A program made the translations under genes and the position numbers. Shown piece by piece: positions 31,313 through 46,943 of a stretch of 46,943 bases of DNA. Origin of the DNA: Candidatus Woesearchaeota archaeon (GTDB taxonomy: Archaea; Nanobdellota; Nanobdellia; SCGC-AAA011-G17; PNOQ01); contig JABJPM010000031.1 of the NCBI GenBank assembly GCA_018663865.1, forward strand, positions 1 to 46,943, read 5' to 3'. Below the pieces are notes generated by a model that saw only the letters and a program-made list of their open reading frames with translations, searched no databases and was not told where the DNA came from. Each line of letters begins with the position of its first letter. Position 1 is the first letter of the stretch.

Positions 31313-32477
31313 TTATTTAAAATCTTCAATAGAATAAGATTCCGGATAAAATGTTAATAACTCCTCAATATAGGTCATTTCAAGATTTTTATTCTCAGAT
31401 CGTTTAGCACTCCTTATGCCCCTTTCAAGGATCTGAGGGTAATCTCTTTCCAGAGAGATTTGAATTTTTAAATTCTTGCACAATTCTAAAAACATTTTGA
31501 TCATTTCCAGATTCGAAATATTCTCTACTGGCCCTTTCAAACCACATACTCTTCAACGGATCAATTTTTTCAAATTCAACAAGTTTTTCAAAATTCTTGC
31601 CAGCACTAAGGTGGTCACCCAATCTCGCACAATTATATGCTTTCGATAAAAATAGCGTTCGATTTTCGTCATCTTCATTATCTTCTGAAATCAATCCATC
31701 AATTATTTTATTAGATTGAGTATAATGTCTCAACTTATTCAAAACCAAAAATTCAAAATGATCCTGATTCACATGAAATTCACATGCATCAATTTCACCC
31801 ATGCTATCATAGAATGTTGGGTCGATTTGACTTATAGATAATTTGTTTGGAGATTCATTAATTGTGATTGACACCCATGCATGGGGCTGAGTGACATTAC
31901 CAAACTCCCTAGACAGGTAAACATTTCCAGTTTTAGGATTGGAATTAATACTTTTAAAAAGATTAAATGTTTCAATAGTCAAATAGGCATATTTATCACA
32001 ATCTCCCCCTCCCAGGTAAAAATATCCATCTATTGGAAGAAATTCTTCGCCATGTTCTTTTTTAAATTCAGGATCAGAATCTACATTAGAATAGGTTATC
32101 CTATCAGCAACAATCTTGTATGAGAGGCCTATCAATTCATTCGGATCAAGGCGAGATATGGATTCCTTATTGAATCCCATTTCATCGGCCAAGGAAAATA
32201 GCTCATTAGAGAATCTTTCAGGATTCGAGAGATTTGAAAATCCTCCCGAGGAGTCACTAAGTATATCTTCTAAACCTGCCACAGGTTCAACATATTTATT
32301 AGGAATATTTATTAAATCCATTTCAGAAAAATTGAAATAATCAATTTCAAGAGTAGTAGTGAGCTCTGGAACTAGTGCAAAATAGTCAACTGGTTCGCCA
32401 ACAACATAATTTAATACTGCTGTAGTAGAAAGATATGTTCCAGCAATTAGTAATCCAGCTTTAATTAAACTTTTCAT
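31313..32477 (-). pseudogene. Membrane-anchored transglutaminase-like (Cys-His-Asp) plus TPR protein with a frameshift near the 3' end
   Basis: GDCDKYA, HAWV, IDPT; ORFs 31425-32477 and 31313-31540 join if one CT unit is added at 31452-31458. Confidence 0.7.
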
Positions 32478-32537
32478 AAAAAATTAATATATTGGGCATT
32501 TATAAATCTTTCTAATGTAACTACTATGAAGTAAAAA

Positions 32538-34250
32538 TTAAATTCCCCAAGTGGGATTTTCCCTTCTTTTTAATTCGGCAATTTCTCGCAAAACATCTTT
32601 TTCTTTTGGACTTAGATATTTTTTTAAATTCTTCAATGCCACAAAATCTGTTTCAGGAATATCTGAAAATAAAATATCTCCCTCATAAACTTGGCGACCC
32701 ACTGTAACGCCAGTCAATGCAACTGCAACCTGTTTGCCCTCTACAGCCTCATTAACGTTATCTTTACCATCTTTAATTGATTTAAGTATACAAAGCTTGG
32801 ATCCATCTTTAGTAACCGGAGAATTGGCTTTTATGGTCCCGATCAATATTTCGACACCCACAATTGCCGGATCTTTTTGTCTAAAAACATGATCTTTCAG
32901 AATTTCAATTTTAAATGGTTTAACGAGATCTCCTAGTTCAGCAGATTCGAGTCTTTTTGCTTCATCTTCCAACCATTTTTCAGCATCTTCTATTATTTTA
33001 TAAATTACTTTATTTGAGATTACATGGACATTTTCCTCGCCCATATATTCCTTAACATTAAATCCTAGAACTAATCGGTTTAATGCATTTTCTTCAGAAG
33101 ATGCTTCCGACATATCGCCCTTGGTAATATTCCCAATTCCTGCTTTTTTAATTTTGATTCCCTTGCCATGAAGTAACCTAGTTAATGCTTCAAGTGAACC
33201 AAGGGTATCTGCTTTTATCACAATGCCCTCGTTATCTGTCTCAATCATCACTTCTTCCACTTCATGCATTATTTCTTCTTTTATTGAATCTGAGTTTTCA
33301 TTCGCAACGGCGATTGGCATACCAGGAATAACATCCTCCAATCCAGGGCCAGATATTTTGACGGCCGCTGAAGCATGAACCTCCCCTATTGCACAACATT
33401 TATTATTTTCTAAAGTAAACAAACATTTAGCCTTAGTTTCAATTGGTGCACCAACGGATCCAATTAATAATTTATCATTTTGTTTTAATGAGCCTGAATA
33501 AATAACGGTATCAAGAGTTTTCCCCATTCCTTTTTCTTCAGTAACTTCAAGGATTGTTCCCCTTGCTTGACCGCTTACATCAATATTTAATGAATCTTCT
33601 AAGAATTTTTGAGCTAATCCGGTTATCGTCATTAATAATTCTGGGAATCCTTCTCCAGTCATTGCAGAGATAGGGATTATTGCAATTTCTTTAGTGTGAT
33701 CTCGGACTCTATCAAATCTTTCAGAATTGATTCCCATCTCAGAAAGCTTACCAACAATTTCATAAAGTTTCATCTCCATAGCTTGTCTTATTTGATCGCT
33801 TTGTTCACTAAAACTCTGCAAAATGAGTTTATCTGGTTGAGACCTCCATCCACCCATAACATCAATTTTATTTGCTGCGACGACAAACGGAGTTTTATAT
33901 TGTTTGAGGATTTCAATTGCTTCAATTGTTTGAGGTTTTAGTCCTTCGTTAACATCAATAACTAAAATCGCAATGTCTGCAATATTCCCCCCTCTTTTTC
34001 TTAAAGTAGTAAATGCTTCATGCCCAGGACTATCTATAAACAGGATTCCTGGGATTGATAATTTGATATTATTTAATAAATCTCCACAAATTTTTTTTAT
34101 ATTTTCTAATTCAATAGTATATGCAGAAATAGCCTGTGTAATTCCCCCAGCCTCTTTAGCGGCCAATGAACTGCCACGTATTCTATCCAAAATAGAAGTT
34201 TTTCCATGATCCACATGAGCCAATAGCACACAGATTGGTTGCCTAATCAT
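32538..34250 (-). CDS. infB: Translation initiation factor aIF5B (IF-2)
   Basis: AHVDHGKT, GGITQ, DSPGHEAF, NKID, KADTLGSLEAL; start set at MIRQP. Confidence 0.97.
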   Translation of the reverse strand: MIRQPICVLLAHVDHGKTSILDRIRGSSLAAKEAGGITQAISAYTIELENIKKICGDLLNNIKLSIPGILFIDSPGHEAFTTLRKRGGNIADIAILVIDVNEGLKPQTIEAIEILKQYKTPFVVAANKIDVMGGWRSQPDKLILQSFSEQSDQIRQAMEMKLYEIVGKLSEMGINSERFDRVRDHTKEIAIIPISAMTGEGFPELLMTITGLAQKFLEDSLNIDVSGQARGTILEVTEEKGMGKTLDTVIYSGSLKQNDKLLIGSVGAPIETKAKCLFTLENNKCCAIGEVHASAAVKISGPGLEDVIPGMPIAVANENSDSIKEEIMHEVEEVMIETDNEGIVIKADTLGSLEALTRLLHGKGIKIKKAGIGNITKGDMSEASSEENALNRLVLGFNVKEYMGEENVHVISNKVIYKIIEDAEKWLEDEAKRLESAELGDLVKPFKIEILKDHVFRQKDPAIVGVEILIGTIKANSPVTKDGSKLCILKSIKDGKDNVNEAVEGKQVAVALTGVTVGRQVYEGDILFSDIPETDFVALKNLKKYLSPKEKDVLREIAELKRRENPTWGI

Positions 34251-43773: not shown

Positions 43774-44022
43774 ATGGTAAAATTTAAATTTATTTATGAT
43801 ATGGAAAATTGTATAGGGTGCAGTTCTTGTGCAGCATTAGATTCAAAAAATTGGAAAATGCAGCCAAATGGAAAATCAAGTTTGAAAGATTCTAAGGAAA
43901 TAGATGCAGAATTATTTGAAAAAGAGTTTCCAGAAGAAAATTTAGATAAAAATTTAGAAACTGCAAGATCTTGCCCAGTAAATGTTATCCACATTCATAA
44001 AGATAAAAATAAAATAATATGA
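43774..44022 (+). CDS. Monocluster ferredoxin
   Basis: CIGCSSC...CPVNVI. Confidence 0.9.
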   Translation: MVKFKFIYDMENCIGCSSCAALDSKNWKMQPNGKSSLKDSKEIDAELFEKEFPEENLDKNLETARSCPVNVIHIHKDKNKII

Positions 44023-45320
44023 TGAAACCGGAAATTCTATCTCCAGTTGGAGATTGGGAAACATTACACGCGGCAATAAAGGCTGGGGCTGACGCAGTAT
44101 ATTTTGGAATAGAGCAAATAAATATGCGGAGCGCATCTGCAAGGAATTTTAAACAAAAAGAACTTTCAAAAATAATGGAAACACTTCATAAGTCAAACAT
44201 GAAGGGATATCTAACACTGAACACACTAATTTATGAACATGAACTTGATCGAGTAAAATCAATTTTAGATGAAGTAAAAAAATCAAAAGTCGATGCAGTA
44301 ATTGCAACCGACGCAGCAATACTTCAATTATGTAATGAAAAAGAAATAGAGGTGCATGTTTCCACTCAGCTATCAATTTCAAACTATGAATCATTGAAAT
44401 TTTATGCTAAATTCTCACCAAGAATCGTTTTAGCAAGAGAATGTACGTTAGAACAAATAAAAGAAATAAAAAAGAAAATAAAAAAAGAAAATTTGAGTTA
44501 TGATGGAAGACAGATAGAGTTAGAAACTTTTGTTCACGGATCATTATGTGTAGCATATTCTGGAAGGTGTTTTATGAGTCAGTTCCACAATAGAATTTCT
44601 GCAAATCGTGGTCAATGTTTGCAAGAATGTAGAAGAAAATATAAAATAATAGATGAAGAAGATCCAAGAAGAGAATTTATTTTAGAAGGTGAACAAGTTA
44701 TGTCGCCAAAAGATCTTTGTACTTTACCAATATTAGATAAACTGGTTGAAGCAGGAATAAATGTTTTCAAAATAGAAGGCAGAGCAAAAGGGCCAGAGTA
44801 TGTCTATACCGTAACAAAAGCATATAGAGATGCAATTGATTTAATTGCAGAAAATAAATTTACAGAAAAAAATATTTTAAAATTATTAAATGAATTAGAA
44901 AAAGTATACAACAGGGGATTTTCAACAAATTTCTTTTTAGGTACGCCAACAAATGATTCATGGACAAAATTTTATGGTTCAATAGCAACAGAAACAAAAA
45001 TAAAAATTGGAACAGTAAATAGATATTACCCAAAACTTAATGTTGCAGAAATAATTATAGAACAAAATGAATTGGAAGAGAACGAAACAATTGCGTTTAC
45101 AGGAAAATTAACCGGATTTTATAAAACAGATATAAAGGAAATTTGGGTAAATGAGAAACCTGCAAAAAAAGCTAAAAAAGGTGACGATGTTACAGTAAAA
45201 GTTGAAGAAAGAGTAAGAAAAGGAGATCAAGTATTCAAAATAAAAGAACAAAAAAAAGAATTCTCAAAATTTGAAATCCACAAACCTTTCAAACAATCAA
45301 AGAAGAAAGGAATGATTTAA
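44019..45320 (+). CDS. U32 family (Fe-S hydroxylase, TrhP/RlhA-like) protein
   Basis: ADAVYFG, HVSTQ, VLARE, CVAYSGRC...NRGQCLQECR, SPKDLC, KIEGRAK; ATGA overlap with ferredoxin. Confidence 0.93.
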   Translation: MMKPEILSPVGDWETLHAAIKAGADAVYFGIEQINMRSASARNFKQKELSKIMETLHKSNMKGYLTLNTLIYEHELDRVKSILDEVKKSKVDAVIATDAAILQLCNEKEIEVHVSTQLSISNYESLKFYAKFSPRIVLARECTLEQIKEIKKKIKKENLSYDGRQIELETFVHGSLCVAYSGRCFMSQFHNRISANRGQCLQECRRKYKIIDEEDPRREFILEGEQVMSPKDLCTLPILDKLVEAGINVFKIEGRAKGPEYVYTVTKAYRDAIDLIAENKFTEKNILKLLNELEKVYNRGFSTNFFLGTPTNDSWTKFYGSIATETKIKIGTVNRYYPKLNVAEIIIEQNELEENETIAFTGKLTGFYKTDIKEIWVNEKPAKKAKKGDDVTVKVEERVRKGDQVFKIKEQKKEFSKFEIHKPFKQSKKKGMI

Positions 45321-45323
45321 AAA
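45279..45323. repeat. 45-bp perfect direct repeat, copy 1 (3' end of the U32 gene)
   Basis: CACAAACCTTTCAAACAATCAAAGAAGAAAGGAATGATTTAAAAA. Confidence 0.95.
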
Positions 45324-45380
45324 TAATAGTTATATGAGGGATCAAAATTAAATATGAATATAATTAAAAAGGAGGTGAAA

Positions 45381-45851
45381 ATGAGAAATAAGAAAATAAT
45401 ATTAAGTATGATTTTGATTACGTTAGTAGTTATTTCCGGGTGCGCAGTACAAAAATCACCAAAACAAGAATCCTTAAATCCAAATATAAATAAAATGACA
45501 AAAGTCGATTTTATTGATTCTGTAACTGACAAAAGTTATCCTGCATATGATATTAGTACATCGATTCAAAGATATATAGAAATTCCTTTATATTTTATGA
45601 CTGAAGAGGATTGTGCAGATATTGGAGGTAGCGTATCTTCTTGTTCGGCGCATGCAGGTTTCGATTGTTGTTATTATTTGGATGATGATGGTGAATGGGA
45701 ATCTGGCCCATTATGGATATCTGAAGAAGACTGTGTGAATTCAGGTTATAGTGTAGGGACATGTTCAGGATATGGATCGGGAGGCATGTACAGTTATAAA
45801 TGTTGTATCAGGGAGATTCGCGGCGAGAGGTTTACACAAGAGATAAACTAA
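45381..45851 (+). CDS. Cys-rich putative lipoprotein
   Basis: SD GGAGGTGA, lipobox ISGC, two EEDC...C...CC repeats. Confidence 0.8.
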   Translation: MRNKKIILSMILITLVVISGCAVQKSPKQESLNPNINKMTKVDFIDSVTDKSYPAYDISTSIQRYIEIPLYFMTEEDCADIGGSVSSCSAHAGFDCCYYLDDDGEWESGPLWISEEDCVNSGYSVGTCSGYGSGGMYSYKCCIREIRGERFTQEIN

Positions 45852-45862
45852 TTTTTTTTTTT
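45852..45862 (+). terminator. Oligo-T terminator
   Basis: Run of 11 T immediately after the lipoprotein stop codon. Confidence 0.55.
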
Positions 45863-45907
45863 CACAAACCTTTCAAACAATCAAAGAAGAAAGGAATGAT
45901 TTAAAAA
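45863..45907. repeat. 45-bp perfect direct repeat, copy 2
   Basis: Identical to 45279-45323. Confidence 0.95.
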
Positions 45908-45941
45908 CAATATTTATAAACTCATCATATCAACGAATATT

Positions 45942-46391
45942 ATGTTAACAATAATGAGGAACAAAGAAATAAAAAAGATTTTATCCGAAATTAAAGATCA
46001 ATTTGATTGTGGAATAAAGGGGGAGCATTTATTTCTAATTTCCAAAAATGATAAAGTGTATATCACAAATCCAGAACTTCAAGAAATAAACACTGAAAAT
46101 TTGAAAATAAATAATACTGGATCATATTTTGGGAAAATAGAAAGGGCCGGATTCAGATTATCAATTGAAGGATCAGAAATTTTAGACAACCCAAAGAAAA
46201 ATATTTTGGAGTTAACAGATGAAGAATTTCAGGCATACATGGCTGGGGAAAATTTAATGCTAGATGAAAAACAAGAAAATGCTTACAAAATAATAAAATA
46301 TAAAAAACATTTTATTGGGTGTGGAAGAGTATCAAATAATGTTCTATTGAATTACATTCCAAAAGCTAGAAGAGCAAAAGAAAATAATTAA
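45942..46391 (+). CDS. RsmF/YebU-type pre-PUA/PUA-like protein
   Basis: GSYFGKIERAGFRLSIEG, ILELTDEEFQAYMAGENL, IGCG...LLNYIPKAR. Confidence 0.7.
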   Translation: MLTIMRNKEIKKILSEIKDQFDCGIKGEHLFLISKNDKVYITNPELQEINTENLKINNTGSYFGKIERAGFRLSIEGSEILDNPKKNILELTDEEFQAYMAGENLMLDEKQENAYKIIKYKKHFIGCGRVSNNVLLNYIPKARRAKENN

Positions 46392-46536: not shown

Positions 46537-46943
46537 ATGTCAAAATTAGAACAAATCTGTAAATTTTATGATATCTCAGTAGAAGTTGGTAAAGGGATTA
46601 TAGGTAAATTTCCGCCATTTGCTGGTTATAATCATTCTAAAGTTGTTAATGAAGCTATTGAAGTGTATGGAATAAATAATGAAGTTAAAATCAAAGAATC
46701 AATAATGAAATTCCCGCGTTTTGCAGGTTATAATCATTCTAAAGTTGTTAATGAAGCTATTGAAGTGTATGGAATAAATAATGAAGTTAAAATCAAAGAA
46801 TCAATATTAAAATTCCCTCCATTTGCTGGCTTAAATCATTCTAAAGTTGTTAATGAAGCTATTGAAGTGTATGGAATAAATAATGAAGTTAAAATCAAAG
46901 AATCAATATTAAAATTCCCTCCATTTGCTGGCTTAAATCATTC
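46537..46943 (+). CDS. 34-aa tandem-repeat protein (3'-truncated; not in ORF track)
   Basis: Open from ATG 46537 to the window end; unit KFPPFAGYNHSKVVNEAIEVYGINNEVKIKESIL; TATA-like CTTATAAA at about 46508. Confidence 0.85.
   Translation, partial: MSKLEQICKFYDISVEVGKGIIGKFPPFAGYNHSKVVNEAIEVYGINNEVKIKESIMKFPRFAGYNHSKVVNEAIEVYGINNEVKIKESILKFPPFAGLNHSKVVNEAIEVYGINNEVKIKESILKFPPFAGLNH
46606..46943 (+). repeat. 102-bp coding tandem repeat, 3 full units plus a partial
   Basis: Units start at 46606, 46708, 46810 and 46912. Confidence 0.97.

What the first reader, a model, noticed from the sequence alone, without database searches (positions are those of the whole stretch)
45279..45907. Single-gene cassette flanked by a perfect 45-bp att-like duplication of the U32 3' end
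Seen: identical 45-mers at 45279-45323 (last codons and stop of U32) and 45863-45907, extending a few more bases with two mismatches. Between them, 539 bp hold an SD, one lipoprotein gene and a T11 terminator; excision would restore a seamless site and release a 584-bp circle. There is no integrase or transposase in the window. Established: duplication of a gene's 3' end is the hallmark of site-specific integration. Inference: a minimal cassette mobilised in trans, or the remnant of a larger element; possibly a swappable surface-protein locus.
Basis: partly seen in the sequence, partly recalled or inferred. Interest (0 to 1): 0.7.

Follow-up and report, generated by a model that had tools for sequence, protein, structure and literature searches.

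The report
One-gene insert with 56-bp target duplication
A 528-base piece of DNA carrying one orphan surface-lipoprotein gene was pasted between two housekeeping genes of a tiny marine Woesearchaeota archaeon, copying 56 bases of the target on both sides; this is a scar type already known from bacteria, and here it also copies a promoter and may still be gained or lost in the wild population.

Summary
Window 45279-45323 and 45863-45907 are identical 45-mers. The repeat extends to 56 nt with two mismatches, occurs nowhere else in the 594-kb genome, and has sharp ends. About 30 independent assemblies show the same structure.

Sister-species contigs (L047, L091-L093, G005) carry one copy of the 56-mer between U32 and the NIP7/PUA gene. 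So this is a 528-bp insertion with a 56-bp target duplication. Two contigs of the same near-clonal population (L118, L095) also show the exact empty site.

The cargo is a Cys-rich lipoprotein with no homolog among 1.84 billion representative proteins. It has its own SD and a T11 terminator but no TATA box of its own. The duplicated 56-mer carries most of the NIP7 TATA box, so both genes keep a promoter.

The att/integrase reading is not supported:
- The genome holds only a XerA-like recombinase, a fragment, and a large serine recombinase, which makes no long repeats.
- No attP-like copy was found anywhere.
- Other loci in the genome carry inserts with different long duplications (C27 about 89 bp, verified).

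Best fit: "insertion with long target duplication" (Nobusato 2000; Furuta 2010).

The parts
44019..45320 (+). U32-family gene (433 aa). Its start overlaps the stop of a small ferredoxin gene. It remains intact after the insertion.
   Evidence: Pfam PF01136, E = 3e-75. It is 86% identical to the G003 and G005 orthologues over the full length.
45279..45334 (+). Direct repeat copy 1. It comprises the last 13 codons plus stop of U32 and 14 nt of spacer. 45 nt are exact and 11 nt carry 2 mismatches.
   Evidence: One 56-bp stretch of the empty-site relative L047 aligns to both copies.
45317..45336 (+). TATA-like elements lying in or at the end of repeat copy 1 (TTTAAAAA at 45317; GTTATATG at 45329, which reads GTTATATA in some strains). 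They are the inferred promoter of the cargo gene.
   Evidence: This is the copy of the NIP7 TATA region. Genome-wide, TATA-like 8-mers peak at -29/-30 from the ATG. The two polymorphic sites 45324 and 45336 lie here. The promoter role is inferred; there are no transcript data.
45335..45862 (+). Unique inserted segment, 528 bp, 33% GC.
   Evidence: It is absent from L047, L091-L093, G005, L095 and L118. Its composition sits at the 72nd percentile of genome windows. It has no terminal inverted repeats and no other copy in the genome.
45372..45378 (+). Shine-Dalgarno sequence GGAGGTG of the cargo gene.
   Evidence: Read from the sequence. SD-like motifs precede 55 of 467 long ORFs in this genome.
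45381..45851 (+). Cargo gene: a 156-aa predicted lipoprotein (signal peptide with lipobox I-S-G-C). It carries two copies of an EEDC...C...CC module, with 8 Cys in the two modules and 9 in the whole protein including the lipobox Cys. It is an ORFan. An alternative in-frame ATG lies at 45354.
   Evidence: No Pfam hit. No homolog in 25 genomes of the family, in the 5.8-billion protein set, or among 1.84 billion representatives apart from its own cluster and a spurious repeat-protein hit. The AF2 model is unreliable, pLDDT 46.
45852..45862 (+). T11 run directly after the stop codon, a likely archaeal oligo-T terminator. It reads T10 in one strain.
   Evidence: L041 has a 1-nt deletion. The terminator role rests on general knowledge of archaeal termination.
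45863..45918 (+). Direct repeat copy 2, a non-coding relic of the U32 3' end. Its right end and flank are of the ancestral type.
   Evidence: Its downstream flank AACTC... matches the empty site of L047.
45913..45920 (+). TATA box TTTATAAA of the NIP7/PUA gene, at -29 from the ATG. It straddles the right end of the repeat.
   Evidence: The box and its 21-nt spacing are conserved in L047 and G003; G005 (L004) instead has TTTAATAA 22 nt upstream of the ATG. -29 is the genome-wide modal position.
45942..46391 (+). NIP7/PUA-domain gene (149 aa). It is the ancestral downstream neighbour of U32.
   Evidence: Pfam PF13636 and PF17833. It lies directly next to U32 in G005, L047, L091-L093, L095 and L118.

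Best explanation
A 528-bp segment was inserted into the short spacer between U32 and the NIP7/PUA gene of a marine Candidatus Woesearchaeota archaeon. It carries a single ORFan lipoprotein gene with its own SD and oligo-T terminator but no TATA box of its own. The insertion duplicated 56 bp of the target, namely the U32 tail plus most of the NIP7 TATA box. This is an 'insertion with long target duplication', not the product of an att-specific integrase.

Shown here:
- The insertion.
- The extent of the duplication.
- The empty sites.
- The uniqueness of the repeat.
- Further cases at other loci of the same genome.

Inferred:
(a) The joining step was a sequence-independent repair or replication event. 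Either foreign DNA was captured at a break with about 56-nt staggered ends that were then filled in, or a template switch returned 56 nt upstream. The TTATA at the left junction may be microhomology.
(b) The duplication survived because it leaves U32 intact, leaves NIP7 its promoter, and hands a second copy of that promoter to the cargo.
(c) The perfect 45-bp repeats allow precise loss by homologous recombination or slippage. That would explain the two empty-site contigs in the same near-clonal population. Alternatively, those contigs are the surviving ancestral allele.
For: - Repeat and anatomy.
- The repeat is unique in the genome.
- Sharp repeat ends.
- One 56-bp target stretch in L047 aligns to both copies. 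The same holds for L091-L093, and for G005 with 45 bp.
- Same-population empty sites. L118's right flank matches at 1081/1081, and its left-flank alignment, which runs through the 56-mer, at 1170/1172. The only two differences are the repeat mismatch positions. L095 is 99.4-99.8% identical.
- There is no integrase in or near the insert. The genome's recombinases are a XerA-like gene, a fragment and a large serine recombinase. No TnpB was found.
- There are no inverted termini and no attC-like fold, z = -1.5.
- The 45-mer is absent from viral contigs and from other metagenome contexts.
- Second verified case: C27:2042-2616 was inserted with about 89 bp of duplication and is empty in G003 and G005.
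- Further repeat-bounded mini-inserts have unrelated repeat sequences of 31-90 bp.
- Promoter logic: the TATA peak at -29/-30, with the NIP7 box at -29 straddling the repeat end.
- Definition of the known kind: PMC2853133. That paper includes 46-bp repeats overlapping gene 3' ends in H. influenzae and remarks that repeats spanning start or stop sites keep the target gene intact.
Against: - The enzymology of 'insertion with long target duplication' is unknown, so the name describes a scar rather than a mechanism.
- A 45-56 bp duplication of a conserved gene's 3' end, with mismatches confined to one end, is also what attL/attR of a tyrosine-integrase element look like.
- The genome is 93% complete and split into 31 contigs, so an integrase could be missing.
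- The same spacer holds another lineage-specific gene in G003.
I could not confirm that here.
- The donor of the cargo is unknown.
- Both same-population empty-site contigs are short (2.8 and 3.6 kb) and could be repeat collapses made by multi-k assemblers.
Confidence: 0.58

Rival explanations
1. Site-specific integration. The 45-56-mer is an att core. The cassette is then a minimal element mobilised in trans, or the eroded remnant (CIME-like) of a larger integrative element that targeted the U32 3' end and carried a copy of it.
For: - The target is the 3' end of a conserved gene, and the gene is restored by the repeat.
- The repeat length and the mismatches at one end only fit attL/attR.
- Precise empty sites exist.
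- Another gene sits in the same spacer in G003.
- Tyrosine recombinases are frequent in genus relatives; G001 and G005 have 6 hits each.
Against: - No integrase lies in the window.
- The genome has only a XerA-like gene, a fragment and a large serine recombinase.
- No second copy of the core exists in the genome, in viral contigs or in other metagenome contigs.
- A degenerate scan for U32 tails in GTDB representatives found single copies only.
- G003's cargo has no repeat.
- Other inserts in the same genome have different long duplications, including one at a gene start. One integrase cannot explain these.
Confidence: 0.2
2. Spread by homologous recombination. The repeat-flanked cassette arose once, by whatever mechanism. 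It now moves between cells of the population as linear or circular DNA that recombines through the flanking homology, or through the 45-bp repeat (Campbell-type). Presence or absence would then reflect recombination rather than new insertion events.
For: - The population is near-clonal yet shows all four combinations of the 45324/45336 and 46065 variants within 740 bp. This indicates recombination.
- Empty and occupied alleles sit on identical flanks.
Against: It does not explain how the duplication first arose, so it complements the main explanation rather than replacing it. No circle junction was seen.
Confidence: 0.12
3. Assembly artefact. Either the occupied structure or the empty-site contigs were produced by the assembler at the 45-bp repeat.
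For: Multi-k de Bruijn assemblers start at k of 21-43, which is shorter than the repeat. The two same-population empty contigs are short, and coverage is unknown.
Against: - The occupied form was recovered by at least three assemblers, in more than 20 samples, on contigs up to 47 kb.
- k=141 spans the repeat.
- Sister species have unambiguous empty sites with diverged sequence.

For the occupied form the artefact reading is therefore practically excluded. Only L095 and L118 remain open.
Confidence: 0.05

Closest known systems
Insertion with long target duplication (Nobusato et al. 2000, Gene 259:99; Furuta et al. 2010, NAR, PMC2853133)
   Same: - A small insert without mobility genes.
- Flanking direct repeats longer than 30 bp that are unique in the genome and that both align to a single copy at the empty site of a related genome.
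- The repeat overlaps the 3' end of a gene, so the gene stays intact.
- The length is close to the 46-47 bp cases in H. influenzae and T. thermophilus.
   Different: - The cargo is not a restriction-modification or other selfish gene. It is an ORFan lipoprotein.
- The host is a DPANN archaeon. Furuta 2010 state that no archaeal case passed their screen.
- The duplication copies a promoter, which then appears to drive the cargo.
- Several such inserts occur in one 0.6-Mb genome.
Integrase-less att-flanked elements (CIMEs, or satellites mobilised in trans) at tRNA or gene 3' ends
   Same: Direct repeats duplicate a gene's 3' end, the cargo is small, and there is no recombinase in cis.
   Different: No cognate integrase or attP was found. 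The repeat sequence is used only once. Other inserts in the genome use unrelated repeats, one of them at a gene start.
Integron gene cassettes (including those reported in Archaea)
   Same: One promoterless ORF of about 0.5 kb, expressed from an external promoter, at a site that holds different cargo in a relative.
   Different: There is no attC-like imperfect palindrome, no IntI/attI platform and no array. The flanks are a duplication of the target and not a cassette-borne site.
Transposon or MITE target-site duplication
   Same: The insert is bracketed by a duplicated target.
   Different: The duplication is 56 bp, against the usual 2-15 bp. There are no terminal inverted repeats and the insert is single-copy.

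Membership tests
Insertion with long target duplication (criteria of Furuta 2010, PMC2853133) | Direct repeats longer than 30 bp flank the insert | tested here: met
   45 bp exact, and 56 bp with 2 mismatches.
Insertion with long target duplication (criteria of Furuta 2010, PMC2853133) | Both repeats align to one copy at an empty site in a related genome | tested here: met
   L047 bases 2803-2858 align to both window copies. The same is seen for L091-L093, G005, L095 and L118.
Insertion with long target duplication (criteria of Furuta 2010, PMC2853133) | Insert shorter than 20 kb, with no mobility gene in or beside it | tested here: met
   The insert is 528 bp with one ORF and no Pfam hit. Its neighbours are GluRS, ferredoxin, U32, NIP7/PUA and a repeat protein. 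No PF00589 or PF00239 hit lies on this contig.
Insertion with long target duplication (criteria of Furuta 2010, PMC2853133) | The repeat is not a multi-copy element of the genome | tested here: met
   Only the two copies exist in the 594-kb genome, allowing up to 3 mismatches.
Insertion with long target duplication (criteria of Furuta 2010, PMC2853133) | The cargo is a restriction-modification gene complex (the scope of the original surveys, not a mechanistic requirement) | tested here: not met
   The cargo is a Cys-rich ORFan lipoprotein.
Site-specific integrative element (tyrosine integrase, attL/attR) | A cognate integrase in the element, next to it, or elsewhere in the genome | tested here: not met
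   Only a XerA-like gene (C15:74188-75051) and a truncated fragment (C13:1-702) were found. The genome is 93% complete, so absence is not proven.
Site-specific integrative element (tyrosine integrase, attL/attR) | attP or a free or other integrated copy carrying the same core | tested here: not met
   Viral contigs gave 0 hits. Metagenome contigs gave 1 hit, and it is occupied. The genome holds only the 2 copies.
Site-specific integrative element (tyrosine integrase, attL/attR) | The same core is reused by other elements at the same target in other genomes | tested here: not met
   The degenerate U32-tail pattern is single-copy in G003 and G005. G003's different cargo lacks a flanking repeat.
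Large serine recombinase integration | attL and attR share only a 2-bp crossover and no long direct repeat (established property of the family) | tested here: not met
   The repeat is 56 bp. The genome's large serine recombinase at C6:41595-42347 therefore cannot account for it.
Integron cassette | An attC imperfect palindrome at the cassette end, and an IntI/attI platform | tested here: not met
   The repeat folds no better than shuffles (z = -1.5 and -1.4; only a 6-bp stem). No integron integrase was found.
DNA transposon / MITE | Terminal inverted repeats, a short TSD and multiple copies | tested here: not met
   The alignment of the insert termini is at chance level. The TSD is 56 bp. No other copy exists.

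The most novel reading that the evidence does not exclude
Marine Woesearchaeota (DPANN) may routinely acquire and shed single, often promoterless, ORFan surface or accessory genes. The process would need no dedicated recombinase and would duplicate 30-90 bp of AT-rich promoter or terminator DNA at the target.

Each duplication would hand the newcomer a copy of a resident promoter. It would also create the direct repeats that later allow precise pop-out. Functionally this would be an 'integron without an integrase', and it would generate presence/absence polymorphism in otherwise clonal populations.

The U32 cassette, the C27 Trm5 cassette, the C17 mini-gene array and the ftsY cassette of this 0.6-Mb genome would then all be products of one such process.
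Probability: 0.15. Interest if true: 0.7.

Novelty: new member of a known kind. Interest (0 to 1): 0.4.

Why it matters
DPANN archaea have tiny genomes, few recognisable mobile elements and many lineage-specific surface proteins. How they gain genes is poorly understood. This locus is a clean, datable example:
- The empty site is known in sister species and probably in the same population.
- The insert boundaries are known to the base.
- The duplication explains how a promoterless foreign gene becomes expressed without harming either neighbour.

Together with the other repeat-bounded inserts in the same genome, it suggests that long-target-duplication insertion contributes to gene flux in these archaea. 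So far this scar has been described mainly for bacterial restriction-modification genes. On its own, the locus is an ordinary scar of a known type.

Tried and rejected
- Extended homology beyond the 56-mer. Both downstream ORFs begin MRNK, which suggested it. Local alignment of the 126-nt flanks was no better than against random genome segments, so I rejected it as chance in AT-rich DNA.
- Paralogy of the cassette with the pilin locus on C21 (blastn 76-87% over 40-84 nt). This is only the shared A/T-rich promoter plus GGAGGTG region of highly expressed genes.
- Cargo homologs. Pfam, family genomes, the word-indexed 5.8-billion set and full HMMER against 1.84 billion representatives gave nothing real. 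The one hit, P0020, is a DUF11-like repeat protein that matches the non-Cys linker.
- Structure prediction of the cargo gave pLDDT 46, too poor for a fold search.
- Circle or attP junction in assemblies. None was seen in any contig fetched.
- Clean genus-level empty site for the ftsY cassette. The left neighbour is not syntenic in relatives, so my search was inconclusive.
A crude search for an exact 16-nt copy of the tRNA tail within 3 kb found nothing. I did not pursue it.
- Selection analysis on the cargo. The population is too clonal, with 0-2 differences.
Full report
**Observation**

The window carries the exact 45-mer CACAAACCTTTCAAACAATCAAAGAAGAAAGGAATGATTTAAAAA at 45279-45323 and 45863-45907. 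None of 100 dinucleotide-preserving shuffles gave a match.

- Allowing mismatches, the repeat is 56 nt long (to 45334 and 45918), with two differences, at 45324 (T/C) and 45329 (G/T).
- Copy 1 starts on a codon boundary of the U32-family gene (44019-45320; Pfam PF01136, E = 3e-75). It covers the last 13 codons, the stop and 14 nt of spacer.
- The 126 nt on either side of the two copies are no more alike than random genome segments, so the repeat has sharp ends.
- With up to three mismatches, these are the only two copies in the whole assembly (594,504 bp, 31 contigs, 31% GC, 93% complete).

Between the repeats lie:
- an SD (GGAGGTG, 45372-45378);
- one ORF (45381-45851, 156 aa, with signal peptide and lipobox I-S-G-C);
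- a T11 run (45852-45862) directly after the stop codon.

**The occupied form is not an artefact**

- Contig ends of this assembly overlap by exactly 141 nt. The final k-mer (141) is therefore far longer than the repeat.
- About 30 contigs from more than 20 samples show the same U32 - cargo - NIP7 arrangement. Wherever I checked the DNA, both repeat copies were present 583-584 bp apart.
- These contigs were produced by SPAdes (NODE_...), MEGAHIT (k141_...), JGI pipelines and NCBI MAG assemblies.

**It is an insertion: empty sites**

The genome is a Candidatus Woesearchaeota (DPANN) MAG, according to the record titles of its genus relatives.

- In the same-genus genome G005, the U32 stop is followed after 27 nt by the NIP7/PUA-domain gene.
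- Four contigs of a closer sister lineage (86-89% DNA identity: L047, L091, L092, L093) show the same adjacency.
- In a BLAST against the window, a single 56-bp stretch of each of these four contigs aligns to both 45279-45334 and 45863-45918. This delimits the target duplication independently at 56 bp.
- The sequence after the stop codon in L047 (AAACAATATTTATAAACTC) matches the flank of copy 2. Copy 2 and its flank are therefore ancestral, and 45335-45862 (528 bp) is the foreign segment.
- Against the L047 target, copy 1 is 51/56 identical and copy 2 is 53/56.

**Presence/absence in the same population**

The population is nearly clonal. U32 is identical in nine contigs, and the cargo shows 0-2 differences.

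Two contigs of this population carry the exact empty site:
- L118 (JGI 3300005838, 3554 bp). Its right flank matches the window at 1081/1081. Its left-flank alignment, which runs through the 56-mer, matches at 1170/1172, and the only two differences are the repeat mismatch positions.
- L095 (ENA ERZ27237643, MEGAHIT, 2834 bp), 99.4-99.8% identical.

Both have a single 56-mer whose right end is of the copy-2 type. That is what the ancestral allele would look like, and equally what a crossover inside the perfect 45-bp block would leave.

Caveat: both contigs are short. A multi-k assembler can in principle collapse a 45-bp exact repeat when the junction k-mers fall below the count threshold.

Among occupied alleles, the variants at 45324/45336 (T/G or C/A) and at 46065 occur in all four combinations. 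This points to recombination within the population.

**The cargo**

- No Pfam family matches it.
- It has no relative in 25 genomes of the family (only signal-peptide matches).
- In the 5.8-billion protein set it matches nothing beyond its own 7-member cluster.
- Among 1.84 billion representatives scanned with HMMER it matches nothing real. The only other hit is a bacterial DUF11-like repeat protein that matches the linker.
- The mature part contains two copies of an EEDC-x(9)-C-x(7-12)-CC module. The two modules hold 8 Cys; the whole protein has 9 Cys including the lipobox Cys.
- The AF2 model is unreliable (pLDDT 46).
- Composition (33% GC) is ordinary for this genome (72nd percentile).
- The insert has no terminal inverted repeats and no other copy in the genome.

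**Promoter logic**

In 467 long ORFs of this genome, TATA-like 8-mers (TTTWWAWA) peak sharply at -29/-30 from the ATG: 97 ORFs, against a background of 0-6 per position. This is the signature of leaderless transcripts. Fifty-five ORFs have an SD instead.

- The NIP7 gene has TTTATAAA at 45913-45920, exactly -29 from its ATG (45942).
- The box and its 21-nt spacing are conserved in L047 and G003. G005 (L004) instead has TTTAATAA 22 nt upstream of the ATG.
- The right end of the duplication (45918) cuts through this box.
- Copy 1 therefore places TTTAAAAA (45317) and GTTATAT[G/A] (45329) 45-64 nt upstream of the cargo ATG.
- The cargo brings its own SD but has no TATA-like box of its own at a usable distance.

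I infer, without transcript data, that the duplication gives the cargo a copy of the NIP7 promoter while NIP7 keeps its own. The T11 run then insulates NIP7 from read-through. The G at 45329 followed by TTATA may mark a microhomology junction rather than part of the duplication.

**Why not an att site**

Recombinases found in the genome:
- One XerA-like tyrosine recombinase (C15:74188-75051).
- One truncated fragment at a contig start (C13:1-702).
- One large serine recombinase that runs off the end of contig C6 (41595-42347), next to wHTH genes. This is probably an integrated element. By established knowledge, large serine recombinases exchange strands at a 2-bp core and leave no long direct repeats.
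- No TnpB.

Other evidence against an att site:
- The 45-mer is absent from IMG/VR viral contigs.
- It occurs in only one further metagenome contig, which is occupied.
- A degenerate pattern for the encoded U32 tail finds single copies only, in G003 and G005.
- The repeat has no attC-like structure (z = -1.5).
- In G003 the same spacer holds a different lineage-specific gene (414 aa, PPDK_N-like, absent from this genome). No flanking repeat beyond chance level is present there.

**The same scar at other loci of this genome**

- **C27.** C27:2042-2616 carries a 157-aa ORFan on the minus strand and is absent from G003 and G005. An 89-bp stretch of each relative aligns to both sides of the insert. 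This is a duplication of about 89 bp covering the promoter and first codons of a Trm5/TYW2 methyltransferase gene.
- **C17.** C17:4562-5123 carries two mini-genes and is absent from G003 and G005. It is bounded by three copies of a terminator/promoter segment.
- **C21.** A perfect 66-bp repeat duplicates the ftsY 3' end around a two-gene cassette. A 90-bp repeat with 8 mismatches brackets a 128-aa ORF. For these two I did not obtain clean empty sites.

The repeat sequences at these loci are unrelated to one another. They lie at gene ends, at gene starts and in promoters. This favours a sequence-independent process over several dedicated integrases.

**Comparison with what is known**

The features match the operational definition of 'insertion with long target duplication' (Nobusato et al. 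2000; Furuta et al. 2010, PMC2853133):
- an insert under 20 kb without mobility genes;
- direct repeats longer than 30 bp that are unique in the genome;
- both repeats aligning to a single copy in an empty-site genome.

Furuta et al. describe 46-47-bp cases overlapping gene 3' ends. They note that repeats spanning start or stop sites keep the target gene intact, and that no archaeal case passed their screen.

The differences here are:
- a non-selfish ORFan cargo;
- an archaeal (DPANN) host;
- the apparent promoter copy;
- several cases in a single 0.6-Mb genome.

The enzymology of this scar type is unknown, so the joining step I propose (staggered break and fill-in, or template switch) is inference.

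**Verdict**

- The cassette is a real insertion, and it is probably still polymorphic.
- The att/integrase reading is not supported.
- It is a new member of a known kind.
- Interest is moderate: the locus itself is an ordinary scar, but it is unusually well resolved and it adds to a recurring pattern in DPANN genomes.

Noticed in passing
L061:1953-2705 (G000 contig C27, same coordinates): C27:2042-2616 holds a 157-aa ORFan on the minus strand. It is an insertion relative to G003 and G005, with about 89 bp of target duplication covering the promoter and first codons of a Trm5/TYW2 methyltransferase gene. The left copy retains a dead mini-start (ATGTTTTTTAAAAAG...TAA). A second 41-bp repeat pair (1541/2537) interleaves with it.
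   Followed up: partly
L062:1522-2166 (G000 C17:4521-5165): Three copies of a T-run/TATA segment bound two mini-genes (62 aa and 95 aa) that G003 and G005 lack, between rpoK and a 360-aa lipoprotein gene. This looks like serial cassette accretion. The 5' 110-137 bp of the 95-aa gene (promoter plus signal peptide) recur at 88-91% DNA identity at six other loci (C11:2101, C11:3065, C31:13508, C16:6299, C28:4451, C28:5363).
   Followed up: partly
L060:1774-3054 and L060:5699-6630 (G000 C21:27773-29053 and 31698-32629): A 90-bp repeat with 8 mismatches (28289/28838) brackets a 128-aa membrane ORF and is nested inside a perfect 31-bp promoter-like repeat (27773/29023). A perfect 66-bp repeat duplicates the ftsY 3' end around a two-gene cassette. 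My genus-level search found no clean empty site for either.
   Followed up: partly
L089 (G000 C6:41595-42347): A large serine recombinase gene (Resolvase domain, E = 2e-42) runs off the contig end. It lies next to several wHTH-like and small genes and is probably the edge of an integrated element or provirus.
   Followed up: no
window 46537-46943 and loci L037-L045, L109-L118: The gene downstream of NIP7 is built from 102-bp tandem repeats. Its called length varies between strains of the otherwise clonal population (200, 226, 234, 242, 276, 302, 310 and 344 aa). This is either real copy-number variation or assembly collapse. The end of contig C13 carries the reverse complement of the same repeats, so C23 and C13 are probably neighbours.
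   Followed up: no
L005:2840-4084 (G003 C2:27589-28833): In the genus relative G003, the U32-NIP7 spacer holds a different lineage-specific gene (414 aa, PPDK_N-like ATP-binding domain). That gene has no homolog in this genome. Only a weak 23-nt, 78% repeat flanks it.
   Followed up: partly
whole genome G000: TATA-like 8-mers (TTTWWAWA) peak very sharply at -29/-30 from the ATG in 97 of 467 long ORFs, and only 55 ORFs have an SD-like motif. The transcriptome therefore looks mostly leaderless, with a rigid TATA-to-start spacing.
   Followed up: partly
window 45324, 45336, 46065: The few SNPs of the near-clonal population occur in all four combinations within 740 bp. This violates the four-gamete test and indicates homologous recombination between strains. 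Two of the three variable sites lie in the putative cargo promoter.
   Followed up: partly
window 43774-44022 / 44019: A small 4Fe-4S ferredoxin gene overlaps the U32 start by 4 nt (ATGA). The pairing is conserved in all relatives fetched, which is consistent with an Fe-S hydroxylase-type U32 enzyme that has a dedicated electron carrier.
   Followed up: no
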